Shown here piece by piece: positions 39,747 to 42,491 of a DNA stretch of 64,000 bases. The translations under genes were made by a program, and so were the position numbers. Position 1 is the stretch's first letter. Every line of letters begins with the position of its first letter. The stretch is from the NCBI GenBank assembly GCA_964503955.1, contig CAZDCG010000001.1:173804-237803 (forward strand). Direction: 5' to 3'. Under the pieces are notes generated by a model. That model searched no databases. It saw nothing but the letters and a program-made list of their open reading frames with translations, and was not told the origin of the DNA. This stretch comes from an uncultured Gammaproteobacteria bacterium. Its GTDB lineage: Bacteria > Patescibacteriota > Patescibacteriia > VMEV01 > CAYQCH01.

Positions 39747-40175
39747 TTACTCACCTGGATAAAACTCAATAATCCACTCAATACCGTACTTGTCCCTAAA
39801 CATACCGGCATAAGAACCCCAGGGACCTTCGCCCATTGGCCCTTCTACGCTTCCTCCGGCAGAAAGACCGTTAAATAACCTGTCCGCTTCTTCCTTGCTT
39901 TGAGCCGTAACTAAAATTTTGCTCCTGTTCTCTTGCTCATTCACCTTCCCCATAAATTCCGGCACATCATTTCCCGTCAATACGCTGCCCTCGCCAATCG
40001 TCAACGTAATAAGCATGATTTTGTTTTCTTCTCCTTCCGGAACGGTGAATTCAGGACTCGCAAGGTCTTTGAAACGCACGATTTTCCCAAATTCCCCGCC
40101 GAATACTGATTGATAAAACGTAAACGCCTCTTCAGCGTTGCCATTGAAGTTGATCCAAGGATTGATTGTGGCCAT
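39747..40175 (-). CDS. VOC family protein (PhnB / 3-demethylubiquinone-9 3-methyltransferase-like glyoxalase fold)
   Basis: It begins MATINPWINFNGNAEEAFTFYQSVFGG. This is a paralog of the gene at 42045-42491. Confidence 0.8.
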   Translation of the reverse strand: MATINPWINFNGNAEEAFTFYQSVFGGEFGKIVRFKDLASPEFTVPEGEENKIMLITLTIGEGSVLTGNDVPEFMGKVNEQENRSKILVTAQSKEEADRLFNGLSAGGSVEGPMGEGPWGSYAGMFRDKYGIEWIIEFYPGE

Positions 40176-40297
40176 AGGTGAGTTAGATAAAACTAGATTG
40201 ATTGTACATTCCGGAATCAAAAATCACCAGCTTTTGCCGGTGATTTTTGATTGGCTCCCTTTGTTGGACTCATTTAGAACGGTTGATTGATATGCGA

Positions 40298-40570
40298 TTA
40301 AGAAACAGTTATCCTCAACTTCACGTTAAGGGCATCTGCCACCTTGTAAAGAAATTCTAAAGAGGGATTATACGATCCTGACTCAAACCGAGAAATAGCA
40401 GATTGTTTGGTGCCAATTTTTTTTGCTAAATCCGATTGAGAAATATTTTTCTCTAACCTTTTTTCTATCAACTCTTGAATAATCAAATACTCAGGTTCAA
40501 GCGCTTTGTAGCTCTTATTGACCTGCTTGTCTTTAAGCAATTCAGATTTTAGGGATTTATAGCTTTTCAT
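40298..40570 (-). CDS. HTH XRE-family antitoxin (HigA-like)
   Basis: The 90-aa ORF has a helix-turn-helix (ISQSDLAKKIGTKQSAISRFESG). It lies directly downstream of the RelE/ParE-like toxin. Confidence 0.75.
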   Translation of the reverse strand: MKSYKSLKSELLKDKQVNKSYKALEPEYLIIQELIEKRLEKNISQSDLAKKIGTKQSAISRFESGSYNPSLEFLYKVADALNVKLRITVS

Positions 40571-40593
40571 ATGGAATGAATATAACGTATATG

Positions 40594-40911
40594 TTATATA
40601 CTGTCAAGCGATGCTTTTCTTTCTTGTGCCAGCTTTAAGTGCTTTGCAGGTATCTTCTGACTCTTTTTCATAAAGCCATGCAAGATAATGGCTATTTTGC
40701 CAGATTGAAAAGTATAGATAAAGCGAACTTCTTGAACACCTCTAATTCGCAACTCATGCAATCCTTTTCCAATACTCTTTGAATGAGGCATTTTTAGATC
40801 TTCCCCAAATTGCTCAAGTAAATCAAAGGTACGCAAAACCTTGGCAATAGTTTGTTTCTCCAAACTCTTGATAAATTTTTCTATGTCTTCGTCATACAAC
40901 TTTATTTGCAT
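40594..40911 (-). CDS. type II toxin, RelE/ParE superfamily (HigB-like)
   Basis: It begins MQIKLYDEDIEKFIKSLEKQTIAKVLRTFDLLEQFGEDL and has KGLHELRI...IAIILHGFMKKSQKIP. The toxin-first order is typical of HigBA. Confidence 0.7.
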   Translation of the reverse strand: MQIKLYDEDIEKFIKSLEKQTIAKVLRTFDLLEQFGEDLKMPHSKSIGKGLHELRIRGVQEVRFIYTFQSGKIAIILHGFMKKSQKIPAKHLKLAQERKASLDSI

Positions 40912-40989
40912 AAAAAAACACGCCATTTCTTTTTAAAGAAGGGGCGTGGGCTGACATGTTGATTATAGCAGAAAAATATCAATCAAAAA

Positions 40990-41012
40990 ACTGGTCAAAG
41001 GACCAGCTTTTT
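40990..41012 (-). terminator. Rho-independent terminator after tRNA-Asn
   Basis: ctggtc aaag gaccag, with T-runs on both strands. Confidence 0.6.
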
Positions 41013-41015
41013 GAT

Positions 41016-41090
41016 TGGCTCCGAGGGTGGGACTCGAACCCACGACCAATTGGTTAACAGCCAACTGCTCTACCACTGAGCTACCTCGGA
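41016..41090 (-). tRNA. tRNA-Asn (anticodon GTT), CCA encoded
   Basis: The reverse complement folds as a cloverleaf (TCCGAGGTAGCTCAGTGGTAGAGCAGTTGGCTGTTAACCAATTGGTCGTGGGTTCGAGTCCCACCCTCGGAGCCA). The acceptor stem has 7 bp, the D stem is GCTC/GAGC and the anticodon loop is CTGTTAA. The T arm is GTGGG-TTCGAGT-CCCAC. Confidence 0.85.
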
Positions 41091-41326
41091 ATATTCTCGT
41101 CTAACCATTTTCTGCCTTGGCCAGACTTCAAGAAACGCTCTCTCTTTTCTGCTTCCCACCTGGTTTGAAAACCTTCACTGTGCATCAAGTTGAATGGGCC
41201 ATTCTGCCTCGTCCATTTATTTGATCCTGAATGATGATCTTTCAAGCGCTCAAGAGCGGTTTTTGAAGTATAACCAACGTAGCGTTTGTTATTTTTCAGA
41301 CTTCTCAGCACATAAACAAAAAACAT
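41081..41326 (-). CDS. GIY-YIG nuclease family protein (81 aa)
   Basis: MFFVYVLRSLKNNKRYVGYTSKTALERLKDHHSG.... The last codons and the TAG stop (IPR*) are positions 2-10 of the downstream tRNA-Asn. Confidence 0.8.
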   Translation of the reverse strand: MFFVYVLRSLKNNKRYVGYTSKTALERLKDHHSGSNKWTRQNGPFNLMHSEGFQTRWEAEKRERFLKSGQGRKWLDENIPR

Positions 41327-41361
41327 AAATTTATGGGCAGAGATTAATATTGTAAGGAGCT

Positions 41362-41431
41362 TGGTGAACAGCCCCAGCCATAGGCTGGTCCGCCTCTGGC
41401 GGAAACTGCTCTACCACTGAGCTACCTCGGA
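41362..41431 (-). pseudogene. degenerate partial tRNA-Asn copy (positions 1-28, a roughly 30-nt GC-hairpin insertion, then a mutated anticodon arm GGCTGTTCACCAAGC)
   Basis: 29 nt are identical to the tRNA 5' end. After the insert, 12 of 15 nt match tRNA positions 29-43. Confidence 0.55.
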
Positions 41432-41676
41432 ATATATATTCTTCTTTTTAAGAACGCTCTCCCAAACCCAGTTTTAAAGTATTTCTCACGAGCCTGGGAA
41501 TCTCTCTTCGACAAACAAGCCTCGTAGTAAATTAACTTCACGGGCCTACGGTAATTTGTCGAGGAAACATTTCCACTCTCGTGTTCACTTATCCTTCTTT
41601 GCAAGTCAGATGCACTACCGATGTAAAACTTATCATCCGAGCAAAGAAGTACATATGTGTAATGAAACCCTTCCAT
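41422..41676 (-). CDS. GIY-YIG nuclease family protein (84 aa)
   Basis: MEGFHYTYVLLCSDDKFYIGSASDLQRRISEHESG.... Its ATG directly abuts tRNA-like GAGCAGTTT, and its C-terminal IPR* plus TAG is supplied by the next pseudo-tRNA copy. Confidence 0.8.
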   Translation of the reverse strand: MEGFHYTYVLLCSDDKFYIGSASDLQRRISEHESGNVSSTNYRRPVKLIYYEACLSKRDSQAREKYFKTGFGRAFLKRRIYIPR

Positions 41677-41779
41677 AAACTGCTCCCCGCCGCTCAGCTA
41701 TGCAGAGCTGGCGGGCCCGCCTGCACTGAACGTAGCATAGCGCAGTGATGTGCGGCGGGTACCACTGAGCTACCTCGGA
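41677..41779 (-). pseudogene. partial tRNA-Asn copy (positions 1-20 and 21-28) interrupted in the D-loop by a 74-nt inverted-repeat element
   Basis: TCCGAGGTAGCTCAGTGGTA, then the 74-nt insert, then GAGCAGTTT. Confidence 0.55.
41686..41759. repeat. 74-nt GC-rich miniature insertion with 8-bp terminal inverted repeats CCCGCCGC / GCGGCGGG
   Basis: CCCGCCGCACATCACTGCGCTATGCTACGTTCAGTGCAGGCGGGCCCGCCAGCTCTGCATAGCTGAGCGGCGGG. A related copy about 85% identical over some 45 nt lies at 41906-41950. Confidence 0.5.
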
Positions 41780-41785
41780 ATACAA

Positions 41786-41815
41786 TTGACATTTGACTGT
41801 TGACCTTTGACTTGA
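41786..41815. repeat. heptamer tandem repeat (TTGAC on the plus strand, four times at 7-nt phasing)
   Basis: aatTGACAtTTGACTgTTGACCtTTGACTtg lies immediately 5' (minus-strand sense) of the pseudo-tRNA/GIY-YIG array. Confidence 0.4.
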
Positions 41816-41825
41816 AAGATCAACA

Positions 41826-41955
41826 TTCTTTGGATCAACTGCTCTACCACTGCCCGCCCGCCGGCTCCTAACGAGCGCTAGCGAGGATAAGCGGTGGGAG
41901 CTACCCCTGCCCGCCAGCACTGAACGAAGCATAGCGTAGTGATGTGCGGCGGGTC
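41826..41955 (-). pseudogene. fourth, most degenerate tRNA-Asn 5' fragment
   Basis: Minus-strand TCCGA + insert + GGGTAGCTC + insert + CAGTGGTAGAGCAGTTG. It carries two GC-rich insertions related to the 74-nt element. Confidence 0.45.
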
Positions 41956-42044
41956 GGAATAAGAAGAAAATGACCAGGAGAGCCGGCCATTTCCATGAAT
42001 ATCCTAACAGAATGAGACAAAAGAAGCAAGCTTGTTCCCTTCTC

Positions 42045-42491
42045 TTACGAAGCCTGCTTCTTCTCGGAAACCGCGATCATCCATTGCACGCCAAATTTAT
42101 CTGTAAACGACCCAAAATAGTCTCCCCAGAACATGTCCTGCATAGGCATTTCTACCTTGCCCCCTTCCGAGAGGGCCGCAAATAAACGGTCGGCTTCTTC
42201 CTTCTCATCAAGATTAAGGCTGATATAGACATTATTGCCCTGATTCAGCGTAAACCCCATGGATTCGGGAGCGTCTGTTCCCATGAGCAGCACACCGCCA
42301 TAGAGCGGAAGCGCGACATGCATCACAAGGTTTTTATCTTCCTCGGCAAGCGGCGGCATTCCTTCTTGCTGAGGGACGCTTCCCATGCGGGCAATGCCGC
42401 CGACGAATTCTGTTCCAAAAACCGATTTGTAGAAGGTAAAAGCTTCTTCGGTATTGCGTGAGAAATTAAGATAGATATTGGTTTGTGCCAT
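42045..42491 (-). CDS. VOC family protein (PhnB-like), paralog of 39747-40175
   Basis: MAQTNIYLNFSRNTEEAFTFYKSVFGTEF...KEEADRLFAALSEGGKVEMPMQD. It aligns along its whole length with the other VOC gene. Confidence 0.8.
   Translation of the reverse strand: MAQTNIYLNFSRNTEEAFTFYKSVFGTEFVGGIARMGSVPQQEGMPPLAEEDKNLVMHVALPLYGGVLLMGTDAPESMGFTLNQGNNVYISLNLDEKEEADRLFAALSEGGKVEMPMQDMFWGDYFGSFTDKFGVQWMIAVSEKKQAS

What the first reader, a model, noticed from the sequence alone, without database searches (positions are those of the whole stretch)
41081..41431. GIY-YIG ORFs borrow their last codons and stop codon from the tRNA (TAG = tRNA positions 8-10)
Both GIY-YIG ORFs end ...(Y)IPR-TAG, where CCG-AGG-TAG is tRNA positions 2-10. 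For ORF A, RNase P cleavage at the tRNA 5' end would remove the mRNA's stop codon. For ORF B the stop sits in a pseudo-tRNA copy. Full-length, stop-terminated mRNA therefore exists only in the unprocessed precursor. Processing would give a non-stop transcript that is a trans-translation substrate. That is a built-in coupling between tRNA maturation and nuclease expression, and it forces a conserved C-terminal Ile-Pro-Arg on the protein.
Basis: inference. Interest (0 to 1): 0.6.

Follow-up and report, generated by a model that had tools for sequence, protein, structure and literature searches.

The report
Mobile nuclease cassettes nested in tRNA gene
Two tiny nuclease genes really do end inside a tRNA gene and use its bases as their stop codon. 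This is best explained as compact selfish gene cassettes that have repeatedly inserted into the tRNA gene, a widespread arrangement I found no description of for bacteria.

Summary
ORF A (41081-41326, -) and ORF B (41422-41676, -) are intact GIY-YIG nuclease genes. Both end CCG-AGG-TAG, which is nt 2-10 of tRNA-Asn(GTT). ORF A ends in the real tRNA (41016-41090); ORF B ends in a 5' copy of it.

The locus is a stack of insertions in one tRNA gene: four tRNA 5' fragments, two unrelated GIY-YIG ORFs (30% identical), and GC-rich palindromic inserts. A metagenome contig is 100% identical on both sides but lacks exactly the 341-bp ORF A cassette. That cassette is bounded by a 32-nt direct repeat.

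Across 80 genomes, 40 of 83 family-A ORFs stop at the tRNA's U8-A9-G10, on at least seven tRNA types. The last two residues follow the acceptor stem, so IPR is not conserved. About 30 relatives have their own stop 0-24 nt upstream.

Nearly all loci carry an upstream 5' fragment of the same tRNA, split by precise 30-nt double-hairpin modules. The closest analogues are fungal mitochondrial endonuclease gene hybrids, double-hairpin elements and phage SegB.

Loss of the stop codon on RNase P cleavage follows logically if ORF and tRNA share a transcript. A selected regulatory role is untested.

The parts
41016..41090 (-). Functional tRNA-Asn(GTT), 75 nt, CCA encoded. Its nt 1-10 overlap the end of ORF A.
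   Evidence: ARAGORN; Rfam RF00005 at 75.7 bits; sequence checked.
40980..41017 (-). Terminator-like hairpin followed by a T-run, directly after the tRNA.
41081..41326 (-). ORF A: an 81-aa protein consisting of a GIY-YIG nuclease domain only. Its stop TAG is tRNA nt 8-10.
   Evidence: dN/dS is 0.08 against its closest relative in L088.
41063..41403 (-). The 341-bp ORF A cassette: module, tRNA nt 29-41 remnant, 34-nt spacer, ORF A, then ATAT plus tRNA nt 1-28. It is present here and absent from contig L089, whose flanks are otherwise 100% identical.
   Evidence: BLAST of L089 against the window: 989 nt and 87 nt at 100% identity, with a 32-nt overlap.
41063..41094 (-). Right copy of the 32-nt direct repeat ATAT plus tRNA nt 1-28.
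   Evidence: identical to 41404-41435.
41404..41435 (-). Left copy of the 32-nt direct repeat. It contains pseudo-tRNA copy 2 (nt 1-28, 41404-41431) and ORF B's stop codon.
41374..41403 (-). 30-nt double-hairpin module TCCGCCAGAGGCGGA plus CCAGCCTATGGCTGG, inserted at CAGTT^GG (after tRNA nt 28).
   Evidence: each hairpin pattern found once in 64 kb; same size and site in 25 other loci; covariation.
41361..41373 (-). GGCTGTTCACCAA: a remnant of tRNA nt 29-41 with one substitution in the anticodon loop. It continues pseudo-copy 2 after the module.
41422..41676 (-). ORF B: an 84-aa GIY-YIG protein from a different subfamily (30% identical to ORF A). Its stop TAG is nt 8-10 of pseudo-copy 2. In L089 the same ORF ends in the real tRNA.
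41686..41759 (-). Two GC-rich palindromic modules (44 nt and 30 nt, with CCCGCC...GGCGGG arms) inserted in pseudo-copy 3 between nt 20 and nt 21.
   Evidence: The same module type occurs upstream of ORF-B-family genes elsewhere.
41760..41779 (-). Pseudo-tRNA copy 3, nt 1-20. Its nt 21-28 (GAGCAGTT) follow at 41678-41685, one base before ORF B's ATG.
41836..41958 (-). Pseudo-tRNA copy 4, the outermost and presumably the original 5' end of the gene. It comprises nt 1-5 (41954-41958), a 44-nt module (41910-41953), nt ~5-13 (41898-41909), a 45-nt module (41853-41897) and nt 13-29 (41836-41852).
41780..41835 (-). 56-nt ORF-less spacer between copies 4 and 3. It may be the remnant of a lost cassette.
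   Evidence: Eroded cassettes of this kind are seen in L088.

Best explanation
The region 41016-41958 (-) is a tRNA-Asn gene colonised at least twice, and probably more often, by small selfish cassettes. Each cassette consists of an ~80-aa GIY-YIG nuclease gene fused head-to-tail to a replacement copy of the tRNA's 5' part.

Each insertion displaces the previous 5' part of the tRNA upstream, where it stays as a dead fragment. The functional tRNA is rebuilt from the cassette-borne 5' part and the resident 3' part, giving a 'hybrid gene'. In some relatives the cassette carries a whole tRNA instead.

The nuclease ORF is packed directly against the tRNA. With tRNA nt 1 in the third codon position, the common U8-A9-G10 gives an in-frame TAG, so the ORF needs no stop codon of its own. 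Its last two residues are simply nt 2-7 of the acceptor stem.

The dead fragments then pick up GC-rich palindromic modules at fixed sites. For ORF A's family these are exactly 30 nt, forming two 6-bp hairpins. One such site is CAGTT^GG.

Shown here:
- the anatomy of the locus;
- the presence/absence polymorphism of the ORF A cassette;
- recurrence of the architecture on many tRNA types and in two GIY-YIG subfamilies;
- purifying selection on the ORFs;
- covariation in the modules.

Inferred:
- that the nuclease cuts unoccupied tRNA genes and spreads by break repair (homing or segmental duplication);
- that ORF and tRNA are co-transcribed from the tRNA promoter upstream of the outermost fragment;
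- that RNase P cleavage therefore destroys the ORF A message by removing its stop. This would keep nuclease expression low.
For: 1. **Indel at identical flanks.** L089 matches window 42392-41404 and 41094-41008 at 100% identity. It lacks exactly 41063-41403 (341 bp), which is bounded by a 32-nt direct repeat. In L089, ORF B abuts the real tRNA.
2. **Two independent genes at one junction.** ORF A and ORF B are only 30% identical yet share the same junction. That indicates independent arrivals, not a recent duplication.
3. **Recurrence of the overlap.** Among 83 complete family-A ORFs in 80 genomes, 33 overlap a called tRNA by 10-11 nt. Seven more end in TAGCTCA-like 5' ends. About 30 end 0-24 nt upstream. 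The tRNAs include Asn, Val, Ile, Thr, Phe, Ala, Pro, Met, Arg and Lys.
4. **Upstream fragment and modules.** An upstream 5' fragment of the same tRNA type was scored in 69 of 81 loci by a loose alignment threshold. It starts at nt 1 in 55. Exact 30-nt inserts lie after nt 28 (25 loci), nt 12 (about 14) and nt 17 (about 9).
5. **Whole-tRNA variant.** In at least 9 of 57 loci the native 3' fragment lies downstream of a cassette-borne complete tRNA.
6. **Second subfamily.** In the ORF B family, 35 of 80 metagenome loci sit within -40..+85 nt of a co-oriented tRNA, covering 16 anticodons. In 22 of 31 examined, an upstream fragment is split by a longer GC-rich palindrome.
7. **Functional genes.** dN/dS is 0.08-0.20 in seven pairs, and the catalytic Y, Y, R, H and E residues are invariant.
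8. **Module structure.** Modules defined by position alone pair at 98% of cells. There are 61 double-sided compensatory changes against 22 in shuffles (0 of 500 shuffles reach this). In the window, each hairpin pattern matches only at this locus.
9. **No recombinase nearby.** No integrase or recombinase lies within about 6 kb.
10. **Promoters.** Promoter-like motifs occur upstream of the outermost fragment in 29 of 53 loci, against 15 of 53 inside the ORF end.
11. **Precedents.** Endonuclease-mediated gene hybrids with a displaced native gene end are known in fungal mitochondria (PMC3630166). Mobile double-hairpin elements are known in Allomyces (cited in PMC3787672). The GIY-YIG enzyme SegB drives tandem tRNA-segB amplification through microhomology between the tRNA 5' end and the segB 3' end (PMC13096335).
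Against: - No nuclease activity, cleavage site or transcript has been observed.
- The 81-aa protein has no DNA-binding domain of the kind that gives known GIY-YIG homing enzymes their specificity.
- The presumed target sequence (CAGTT^GG and the rest of the tRNA) is intact in the functional tRNA. Self-cleavage is therefore unexplained, except in the loci where a group I intron splits the anticodon loop.
- The cassette-borne and displaced 5' parts are usually identical, so a foreign origin of the inserted part is not demonstrated.
- No consensus sigma-70 promoter was found anywhere in 40900-42200.
- Almost no relatives occur in viral contigs or annotated phages, so the vehicle for spread between genomes is unknown.
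Confidence: 0.68

Rival explanations
1. One reading: the shared stop codon is a selected regulatory device. Only the unprocessed precursor can yield full-length nuclease. RNase P cleavage turns the message into a non-stop mRNA that tmRNA clears. Nuclease expression is thereby coupled to tRNA maturation. This is compatible with the mobile-cassette explanation and would be an added layer on it.
For: - The same frame (tRNA nt 1 = third codon position, stop at nt 8-10) is used in 40 of 45 ORFs that end inside a tRNA or tRNA-like 5' end. It occurs on at least seven tRNA types.
- Even ORFs with their own stop sit only 0-24 nt from tRNA nt 1.
- tmRNA exists in these lineages (L030).
- Homing endonucleases are generally kept at very low expression. 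This rests on established knowledge, not on a test here.
Against: - About 30 of 83 family-A ORFs and nearly all ORF-B-family ORFs have their own stop. The overlap and own-stop states are interspersed on the tree.
- The -10 frame is also simply the one that adds the fewest extra residues (2, against 6 or more in the other frames).
- ORF B in this genome ends in a fragment that should not be an RNase P substrate.
- There are no expression data.
Confidence: 0.25
2. The 30-nt double-hairpin modules are the primary mobile elements, behaving like MITEs. The GIY-YIG protein would be their structure-specific transposase or nickase. The tRNA fragments would be collateral products of repeated cutting and repair at tRNA-like sites.
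For: - Module size is exact (30 nt). Insertion points are fixed: 5' flank CAGTT in 36 of 91 modules and TAGCT in 17 of 91.
- A single fragment can hold up to four modules.
- The palindromes are almost purely Watson-Crick, with only 3 G-U-type cells against 61 double changes. This fits DNA hairpins.
- Modules are found only next to GIY-YIG genes: each hairpin pattern matches once in this 64-kb window.
- Some ORF-B-family genes have modules on both sides and no tRNA (L084-86).
Against: - Modules lie inside the displaced fragments, not at the ends of the ORF cassette.
- The 341-bp indel is bounded by tRNA sequence, not by modules.
- No GIY-YIG transposase is known in prokaryotes, as far as I recall.
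Confidence: 0.15
3. There is no mobility. An ancient tandem duplication of a housekeeping GIY-YIG-plus-tRNA operon has been inherited vertically and is slowly decaying. The nuclease has a host function such as repair.
For: - The nearest solved relatives are UPF0213 proteins of unknown function, found in ordinary genomes (1ZG2 and 1YWL, E about 1e-5).
- The ORFs are under strong purifying selection.
Against: - The cassette is present or absent between 100%-identical flanks.
- Two ORFs only 30% identical are stacked at the same junction.
- The architecture occurs on at least 20 tRNA species, with the GIY-YIG tree only partly tracking tRNA type.
- The ORF A region has about 42% GC against about 49% for the host.
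- Eroded cassettes and tandem remnants exist (L088 and L008).
Confidence: 0.08
4. The repeats are att-type duplications left by an integrase-driven genomic island, as is classical for tRNA genes.
For: - tRNA genes are classical integration sites.
- A separate 15-nt direct repeat of the tRNA 3' end brackets a toxin-antitoxin islet on the other side of this same tRNA.
Against: - The duplicated part is the 5' part, not the 3' part.
- The units are only about 340 bp.
- No integrase lies within about 6 kb.
- The same architecture in about 100 loci always carries only a GIY-YIG gene.
Confidence: 0.03

Closest known systems
Mobile endonuclease ORFs (mORFs) that create 'gene hybrids' in fungal mitochondria: Allomyces atp6-ORF360, and Glomus atp6, atp9, cox2 and nad3 (PMC3630166)
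   Same: - An endonuclease ORF travels with a copy of part of the target gene. For Glomus atp9 the ORF is GIY-YIG.
- The inserted part fuses with the resident gene and keeps it functional.
- The native part is displaced and persists as a pseudo-fragment.
- The ORF can be in phase with the host gene and lack its own stop.
   Different: - Here the target is a tRNA gene in a bacterial chromosome.
- The 5' part is replaced, not the 3' part.
- The ORF lies upstream and reads into the RNA gene.
- The nuclease is only about 80 aa.
- A foreign origin of the inserted part is not shown.
Double-hairpin elements of Allomyces mtDNA (Paquin et al. 2000, as cited in PMC3787672) and yeast mitochondrial GC clusters
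   Same: - Short, GC-rich, two-hairpin (palindromic) inserts in AT-richer DNA.
- Apparently mobile.
- Found next to mobile endonuclease ORFs and in non-essential parts of RNA genes.
   Different: - No sequence relationship was tested.
- Here the size is fixed at 30 nt for family A.
- The sites are specific positions of tRNA-derived sequence.
- The details of the Allomyces elements are recalled from memory; only the citation was checked.
Phage T4/T6 SegB, a free-standing GIY-YIG homing endonuclease in the tRNA gene cluster (PMC2330249, PMC13096335)
   Same: - A GIY-YIG enzyme encoded among tRNA genes that cuts tRNA-gene DNA.
- It promotes inheritance of its own locus.
- It drives tandem repeats of a tRNA-plus-segB unit, through microhomology between the tRNA 5' end and the segB 3' end.
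   Different: - SegB is a longer protein than these ~80-aa ORFs, large enough that a 28-aa C-terminal truncation is reported (PMC13096335). That it carries a separate DNA-binding part is recalled, not checked.
- There is no detectable sequence similarity to annotated phages.
- The setting here is a cellular chromosome.
- SegB shows no stop-codon sharing and no hairpin modules.
UPF0213 / YhbQ-type single-domain GIY-YIG proteins (PDB 1ZG2 BH0048, 1YWL EF2693)
   Same: The closest solved sequences (E about 1e-5). They are of similar size and consist of the GIY-YIG domain only.
   Different: Their function is unknown. As far as I know they have no reported tRNA linkage.
tRNA punctuation in animal mitochondria (ORFs abut tRNAs, and incomplete stop codons are completed after tRNA excision; recalled knowledge)
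   Same: The end of an ORF is defined by the neighbouring tRNA and its processing.
   Different: There, processing creates the stop codon. Here it would remove it.

Membership tests
GIY-YIG nuclease superfamily | Match to the GIY-YIG catalytic domain profile above the curated threshold. | tested here: met
   PF01541 scores 52.5 bits (ORF A) and 57 bits (ORF B) against a cut-off of 22.6.
GIY-YIG nuclease superfamily | Conserved catalytic residues: the two Tyr of the GIY and YIG motifs, plus Arg, His and Glu. | tested here: met
   Y5, Y16, G18, R27, H31 and E63 are invariant across 18 sequences that include both ORFs. The equivalent set is invariant in the ORF B family.
GIY-YIG homing endonucleases (I-TevI / Seg type) | A C-terminal DNA-binding region linked to the catalytic domain, and a match to the group I intron endonuclease model. 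| tested here: not met
   The proteins are 81 and 84 aa, catalytic domain only. TIGR01453 scores 18.5 and 21.9 bits against a cut-off of 56. tblastn finds no match in 50,697 phage records.
GIY-YIG homing endonucleases (I-TevI / Seg type) | Site-specific cleavage of the unoccupied allele, followed by gene conversion. | not testable with these tools
   The only evidence is indirect: one presence/absence polymorphism between identical flanks.
Endonuclease-mediated gene hybrid (mORF type) | An endonuclease ORF adjacent to a duplicated part of the host gene, with the native part displaced as a non-functional fragment. | tested here: met
   Window anatomy. Scored in 69 of 81 family-A loci by a loose alignment threshold and in 22 of 31 family-B loci. 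Downstream 3' fragments occur where a whole tRNA is carried.
Endonuclease-mediated gene hybrid (mORF type) | The inserted gene part is of foreign origin, diverging from the native part. | tested here: inconclusive
   The 5' parts are mostly identical over nt 1-12. A few loci differ: L026, L042, L045, L052 and L080, and L081. L034 carries a clearly different tRNA-Asn from the displaced one.
Double-hairpin / GC-cluster type mobile palindromes | Two adjacent GC-rich hairpins maintained by compensatory change. | tested here: met
   98% of cells pair. There are 61 double-sided changes against 22 in shuffles. Slid controls pair at 13-43%. The inserts were defined by position, not by pairing.
Double-hairpin / GC-cluster type mobile palindromes | Demonstrated mobility: the same site occupied in one genome and empty in a close relative. 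| not tested
   No pair of close relatives differing only by a module was recovered.
Integrase-type tRNA-targeting island | A tyrosine or serine recombinase, with att repeats made from the tRNA 3' end. | tested here: not met
   No recombinase was found in 32-47.5 kb. The repeats on this side are 5' parts of the tRNA.

The most novel reading that the evidence does not exclude
This is a previously unrecognised class of bacterial mobile element. A minimal ~80-aa GIY-YIG nuclease, together with dedicated 30-nt double-hairpin DNA modules, colonises tRNA genes by replacing their 5' half or the whole gene. It is expressed as part of the pre-tRNA leader. Its translation is gated by RNase P, because its stop codon is U8-A9-G10 of the tRNA itself.
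Probability: 0.35. Interest if true: 0.8.

Novelty: new variant of a known kind. Interest (0 to 1): 0.62.

Why it matters
- **A new home for a known strategy.** If the cassettes are nuclease-driven, bacteria (mainly Patescibacteria/CPR, but also this larger-genome host) harbour a compact homing-type element. It hides inside essential single-copy tRNA genes by bringing its own replacement piece. That strategy is so far documented for mitochondrial protein genes and, in part, for phage tRNA clusters.
- **Annotation puzzles explained.** It would account for the many tiny 'GIY-YIG nuclease family protein' genes next to tRNAs, the tRNA pseudo-fragments, and the odd GC-rich peptides such as PPEADQPPAG that gene callers append to these ORFs.
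- **A testable expression question.** It offers a natural case in which tRNA 5' processing and translation termination compete for the same ten nucleotides.
- **A minimal nuclease.** An 80-aa enzyme with apparent site preference, paired with 30-nt hairpin modules, could interest nuclease biochemists.

Tried and rejected
- **Literature.** Searches combining GIY-YIG with tRNA, Patescibacteria, CPR, palindromes or free-standing elements found no description of this arrangement. Only analogues turned up.
- **Exact look-up of ORF A's contig** returned nothing.
- **Metagenome scan for the window's upstream flank** (25-mer), intended to find fully empty sites, returned nothing.
- **Viral contigs** gave 5 weak loci and no typical architecture. 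**Annotated phages** gave no match. Phage carriage is therefore not supported.
- **Fixed-stagger target-site duplication model.** Rejected because the displaced fragment ends at variable positions (nt 22 to 47), and the bases after the module match the local tRNA.
- **'All fragments break at nt 28/29'.** Rejected once copy 2 was seen to continue as nt 29-41 after the module.
- **Dispersed REP-like repeats.** Rejected for this window, where each hairpin pattern matches once.
- **RNA folds of the leader regions** have strongly negative z-scores, but they do not discriminate between models.
- **Promoter scan of the window** found no consensus promoter.
Full report
**1. What is in the window**

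All features below lie on the minus strand. ARAGORN finds a single tRNA in the 64 kb, tRNA-Asn(GTT) at 41016-41090. Rfam confirms it at 75.7 bits against a gathering score of 29.

ORF A (41081-41326, 81 aa) and ORF B (41422-41676, 84 aa) both match Pfam GIY-YIG well above threshold.

- ORF A ends GAG AAT ATT CCG AGG TAG. The last T of ATT is tRNA nt 1 and TAG is nt 8-10.
- ORF B ends ...ATT CCG AGG TAG inside a copy of tRNA nt 1-28 (41404-41431).

It is not a chance resemblance: the 15-mer GGTAGCTCAGTGGTA occurs three times against 0.05 expected.

**2.

The locus is a nested series (coordinates verified).

- **Copy 2** of the tRNA 5' part does not stop at nt 28. A 30-nt insert follows (41374-41403, TCCGCCAGAGGCGGA plus CCAGCCTATGGCTGG, two perfect hairpins). 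After it the copy continues as GGCTGTTCACCAA, which is nt 29-41 with one change.
- **Copy 3** (41760-41779 = nt 1-20) is split by 44-nt and 30-nt GC-rich palindromes (41686-41759). It resumes with GAGCAGTT (nt 21-28), one base before ORF B's ATG.
- **Copy 4** (41836-41958) is split by two further palindromes.
- **A 32-nt exact direct repeat** (ATAT plus nt 1-28; 41063-41094 = 41404-41435) brackets ORF A.

ORF A and ORF B are only 30% identical. The shared ending therefore does not come from a recent duplication of one gene.

**3. Presence/absence polymorphism**

Contig L089 (Logan, SRR11843834) matches window 42392-41404 over 989 nt and 41094-41008 over 87 nt, both at 100% identity. The two matches share 32 nt of the query.

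L089 is thus this locus minus exactly 341 bp (41063-41403): the module, the remnant, the spacer, ORF A and one repeat copy. In L089, ORF B runs straight into the complete tRNA.

The ORF A cassette is therefore a discrete unit that has been gained or lost between otherwise identical sequences.

Caveat: the repeat (32 nt) is about the k-mer size I recall for that assembler. A deletion or an assembly path through the repeat cannot be excluded.

L088, a relative with 85% nucleotide identity, carries eroded cassette remnants behind its ORF. L008 has tandem ORF-less fragments.

**4. The arrangement is general**

*Family A.* A scan of GTDB representative genomes with an ORF A-family alignment returned 80 loci. 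Most are Patescibacteria/CPR MAGs; some bins carry other taxonomic labels.

Among 83 complete ORFs:

| Class | Count |
|---|---|
| Overlap a called, co-oriented tRNA by 10-11 nt | 33 |
| End in TAGCTCA-like 5' ends (fragments or truncated loci) | 7 |
| Read deeper into the tRNA | 5 |
| Stop 0-24 nt upstream of tRNA nt 1 | about 30 |

- The tRNAs are Asn (the majority), Val, Ile(TAT), Thr, Phe, Ala, Pro, Met, Arg and Lys.
- Several apparent 'no tRNA' cases are tRNA-Asn genes with a group I intron in the anticodon loop. Rfam RF00028 scores above gathering in 5 of 6 loci tested.
- TAG occupies nt 8-10 in 90 of 130 tRNAs in these loci, so a free stop is usually available.
- The final dipeptide follows the acceptor stem (PR, PG, RG, RE, GV, DA, RP, PP and others). 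Only ...ENI before it is conserved.

*Family B.* The ORF B family behaves similarly but mostly keeps its own stop. Of 80 metagenome loci, 35 sit within -40..+85 nt of a co-oriented tRNA, covering 16 anticodons. Typical distances are 0-14 nt. Only one locus has the exact -10 overlap; three more overlap by other amounts (-1, -38, -40).

**5. Common architecture**

Upstream of almost every family-A ORF lies a 5' fragment of the same tRNA type as the one downstream.

- It was scored in 69 of 81 loci by a loose alignment threshold.
- It starts at nt 1 in 55 loci.
- It is interrupted by inserts of exactly 30 nt: after nt 28 in 25 loci, after nt 12 in about 14, and after nt 17 in about 9.

The insertion site is defined by sequence. 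CAGTT^GG lies in the anticodon stem of tRNA-Asn and in the D-loop of Val, Ile, Thr, Pro and Phe. Other sites are GTAGCT^CA and CCGTT^AGCT.

Inserts defined purely by position fit a two-hairpin model.

- 98% of cells pair.
- There are 61 double-sided changes against 22 in shuffles; 0 of 500 shuffles reach the observed value.
- Slid controls pair at 13-43%.
- Only 3 cells are G-U type, so the palindromes are Watson-Crick. This hints at a DNA-level feature.

In the window, each hairpin pattern matches only at this locus.

ORF-B-family loci have the same layout with a different, longer palindrome (CCCGCC..GCGTTGCGGGCGGG type). This is the type seen in window copies 3 and 4.

In some loci the cassette carries a complete tRNA, and the native 3' fragment lies downstream with its own module. 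This holds in at least 9 of 57 loci and is enriched among own-stop loci.

**6. The ORFs are real genes**

- dN/dS is 0.08-0.20 in seven pairs with measurable dS.
- The catalytic Tyr, Tyr, Arg, His and Glu are invariant.
- The nearest solved structures are the single-domain UPF0213 proteins 1ZG2 and 1YWL.
- The proteins lack the DNA-binding extension of I-TevI/Seg enzymes and fall far below the TIGR01453 cut-off. I therefore do not file them as canonical homing endonucleases.

**7. Mechanism**

*Best supported.* Each cassette is a selfish unit: nuclease ORF plus replacement tRNA 5' part, or plus a whole tRNA. It sits inside a tRNA gene. The displaced native part stays upstream with the original promoter.

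Promoter-like motifs occur upstream of the outermost fragment in 29 of 53 loci, against 15 of 53 inside the ORF end. None is recognisable in the window itself.

The ORF is packed against tRNA nt 1, and the native leader consensus ATAT is reproduced by the ORF's ...AAT AT codons. In that frame U8A9G10 is the first stop, adding only two residues. The other two frames add six or more.

This matches three precedents:
- the endonuclease 'gene hybrid' logic documented in fungal mitochondria (PMC3630166);
- double-hairpin elements, as cited in PMC3787672;
- the experimentally shown ability of the GIY-YIG enzyme SegB to generate tandem tRNA-segB repeats through microhomology between the tRNA 5' end and the segB 3' end (PMC13096335).

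*Inferred, not shown.* Cleavage of empty tRNA genes, co-transcription, and the role of the modules are all inferred. The modules could immunise or stabilise the displaced fragments, or they could be parasitic MITE-like passengers.

*Unexplained.* It is unclear how the intact functional tRNA escapes cutting, and how an 81-aa protein achieves specificity.

**8.

If ORF A and the tRNA share a transcript, RNase P must remove the stop codon. The resulting RNA would be a non-stop message. tmRNA is present in these lineages.

This is a valid consequence and could keep a dangerous nuclease scarce. However:
- the overlap is dispensable in many relatives;
- the overlap and own-stop states are interspersed on the tree;
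- the idea does not apply to ORF B here.

I rate a selected regulatory role at about 0.25, as an add-on to the mobile-cassette explanation rather than an alternative to it.

**9. Context**

- The host is not a typical CPR genome: it has a Kelch protein of 1272 aa, an Old Yellow Enzyme-type reductase, a PAS protein, and about 49% GC.
- The ORF A region has about 42% GC. Its closest relatives are Patescibacteria proteins.
- One study reports GIY-YIG domain genes among those predicted to be transferred from Patescibacteria to other bacteria (PMC12455944).
- No recombinase lies nearby.

**10. Novelty**

Eight full-text searches found no description of tRNA-embedded minimal GIY-YIG cassettes or their 30-nt modules in bacteria. 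The library is incomplete, so prior description cannot be excluded.

I class this as a new variant of a known kind: endonuclease-driven gene-hybrid elements. The stop-codon sharing is one of its signatures.

Noticed in passing
window 40244-40258 and 41008-41022 (-), bracketing 40259-41007: An exact 15-nt direct repeat GGAGCCAATCAAAAA (the tRNA-Asn 3' end plus its trailer; expected 0.03) flanks a low-GC islet (33-35% against about 49%). The islet encodes a Gp49/HigB-like toxin (40594-40926) and an HTH_3 antitoxin (40298-40570). This is a second, 3'-side insertion at the same tRNA, with no integrase nearby. Paralogous VOC/glyoxalase genes lie on both sides of the whole complex (39747-40220 and 42045-42491).
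   Followed up: partly
L009, L016, L017, L025, L047 (also L018, L022, L027, L032 by eye), just downstream of the GIY-YIG ORF: The tRNA-Asn(GTT) genes downstream of the nuclease ORF carry ORF-less group I introns of roughly 200-350 nt in the anticodon loop (Rfam RF00028 above gathering). A free-standing GIY-YIG gene next to an ORF-less intron recalls 'collaborative homing'. The intron would also interrupt the tRNA sequence that a nuclease might recognise.
   Followed up: partly
L024, L026, L034, L039, L048, L058 (about 2740-2850 in each): Cassette-borne complete tRNAs are flanked by ~11-nt leader and trailer sequences that are complementary to each other and extend the acceptor stem. In L058 the displaced native gene shows the same feature. 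This may be a processing stem; its significance is unknown.
   Followed up: no
L090 (JGI 3300009095), 840-958: Here ORF B is followed by pseudo-copy 3 with its modules and then the start of ORF B again. This is either a tandem duplication of the ORF B cassette or an assembly loop through the repeat.
   Followed up: no
L091 (IMG/VR contig), 1400-1820: A higher-GC relative has the opposite geometry. The ORF starts 9 nt after a tRNA-like 3' end (..CCA) and runs into a second tRNA-like sequence, where a single TCCGCCTCAGGCGGA hairpin sits in place of the anticodon arm. ARAGORN calls neither sequence.
   Followed up: no
Proteins P0016, P0041, P0059, P0126: Gene callers extend some of these ORFs upstream through the modules and tRNA fragments. 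This produces spurious N-terminal peptides such as ...VEQFPPEADQPPAG..., an annotation artefact that is diagnostic for the modules.
   Followed up: partly
L084-L086, L099-L101, L105, L106, L111, L118, L119: Many ORF-B-family genes have GC-rich palindromic modules on one or both sides and no tRNA nearby. The link between nuclease and module therefore also exists outside tRNA genes.
   Followed up: no
L030, 6-405: A tmRNA gene occurs in a Nomurabacteria locus, so trans-translation is available in at least some carriers.
   Followed up: no
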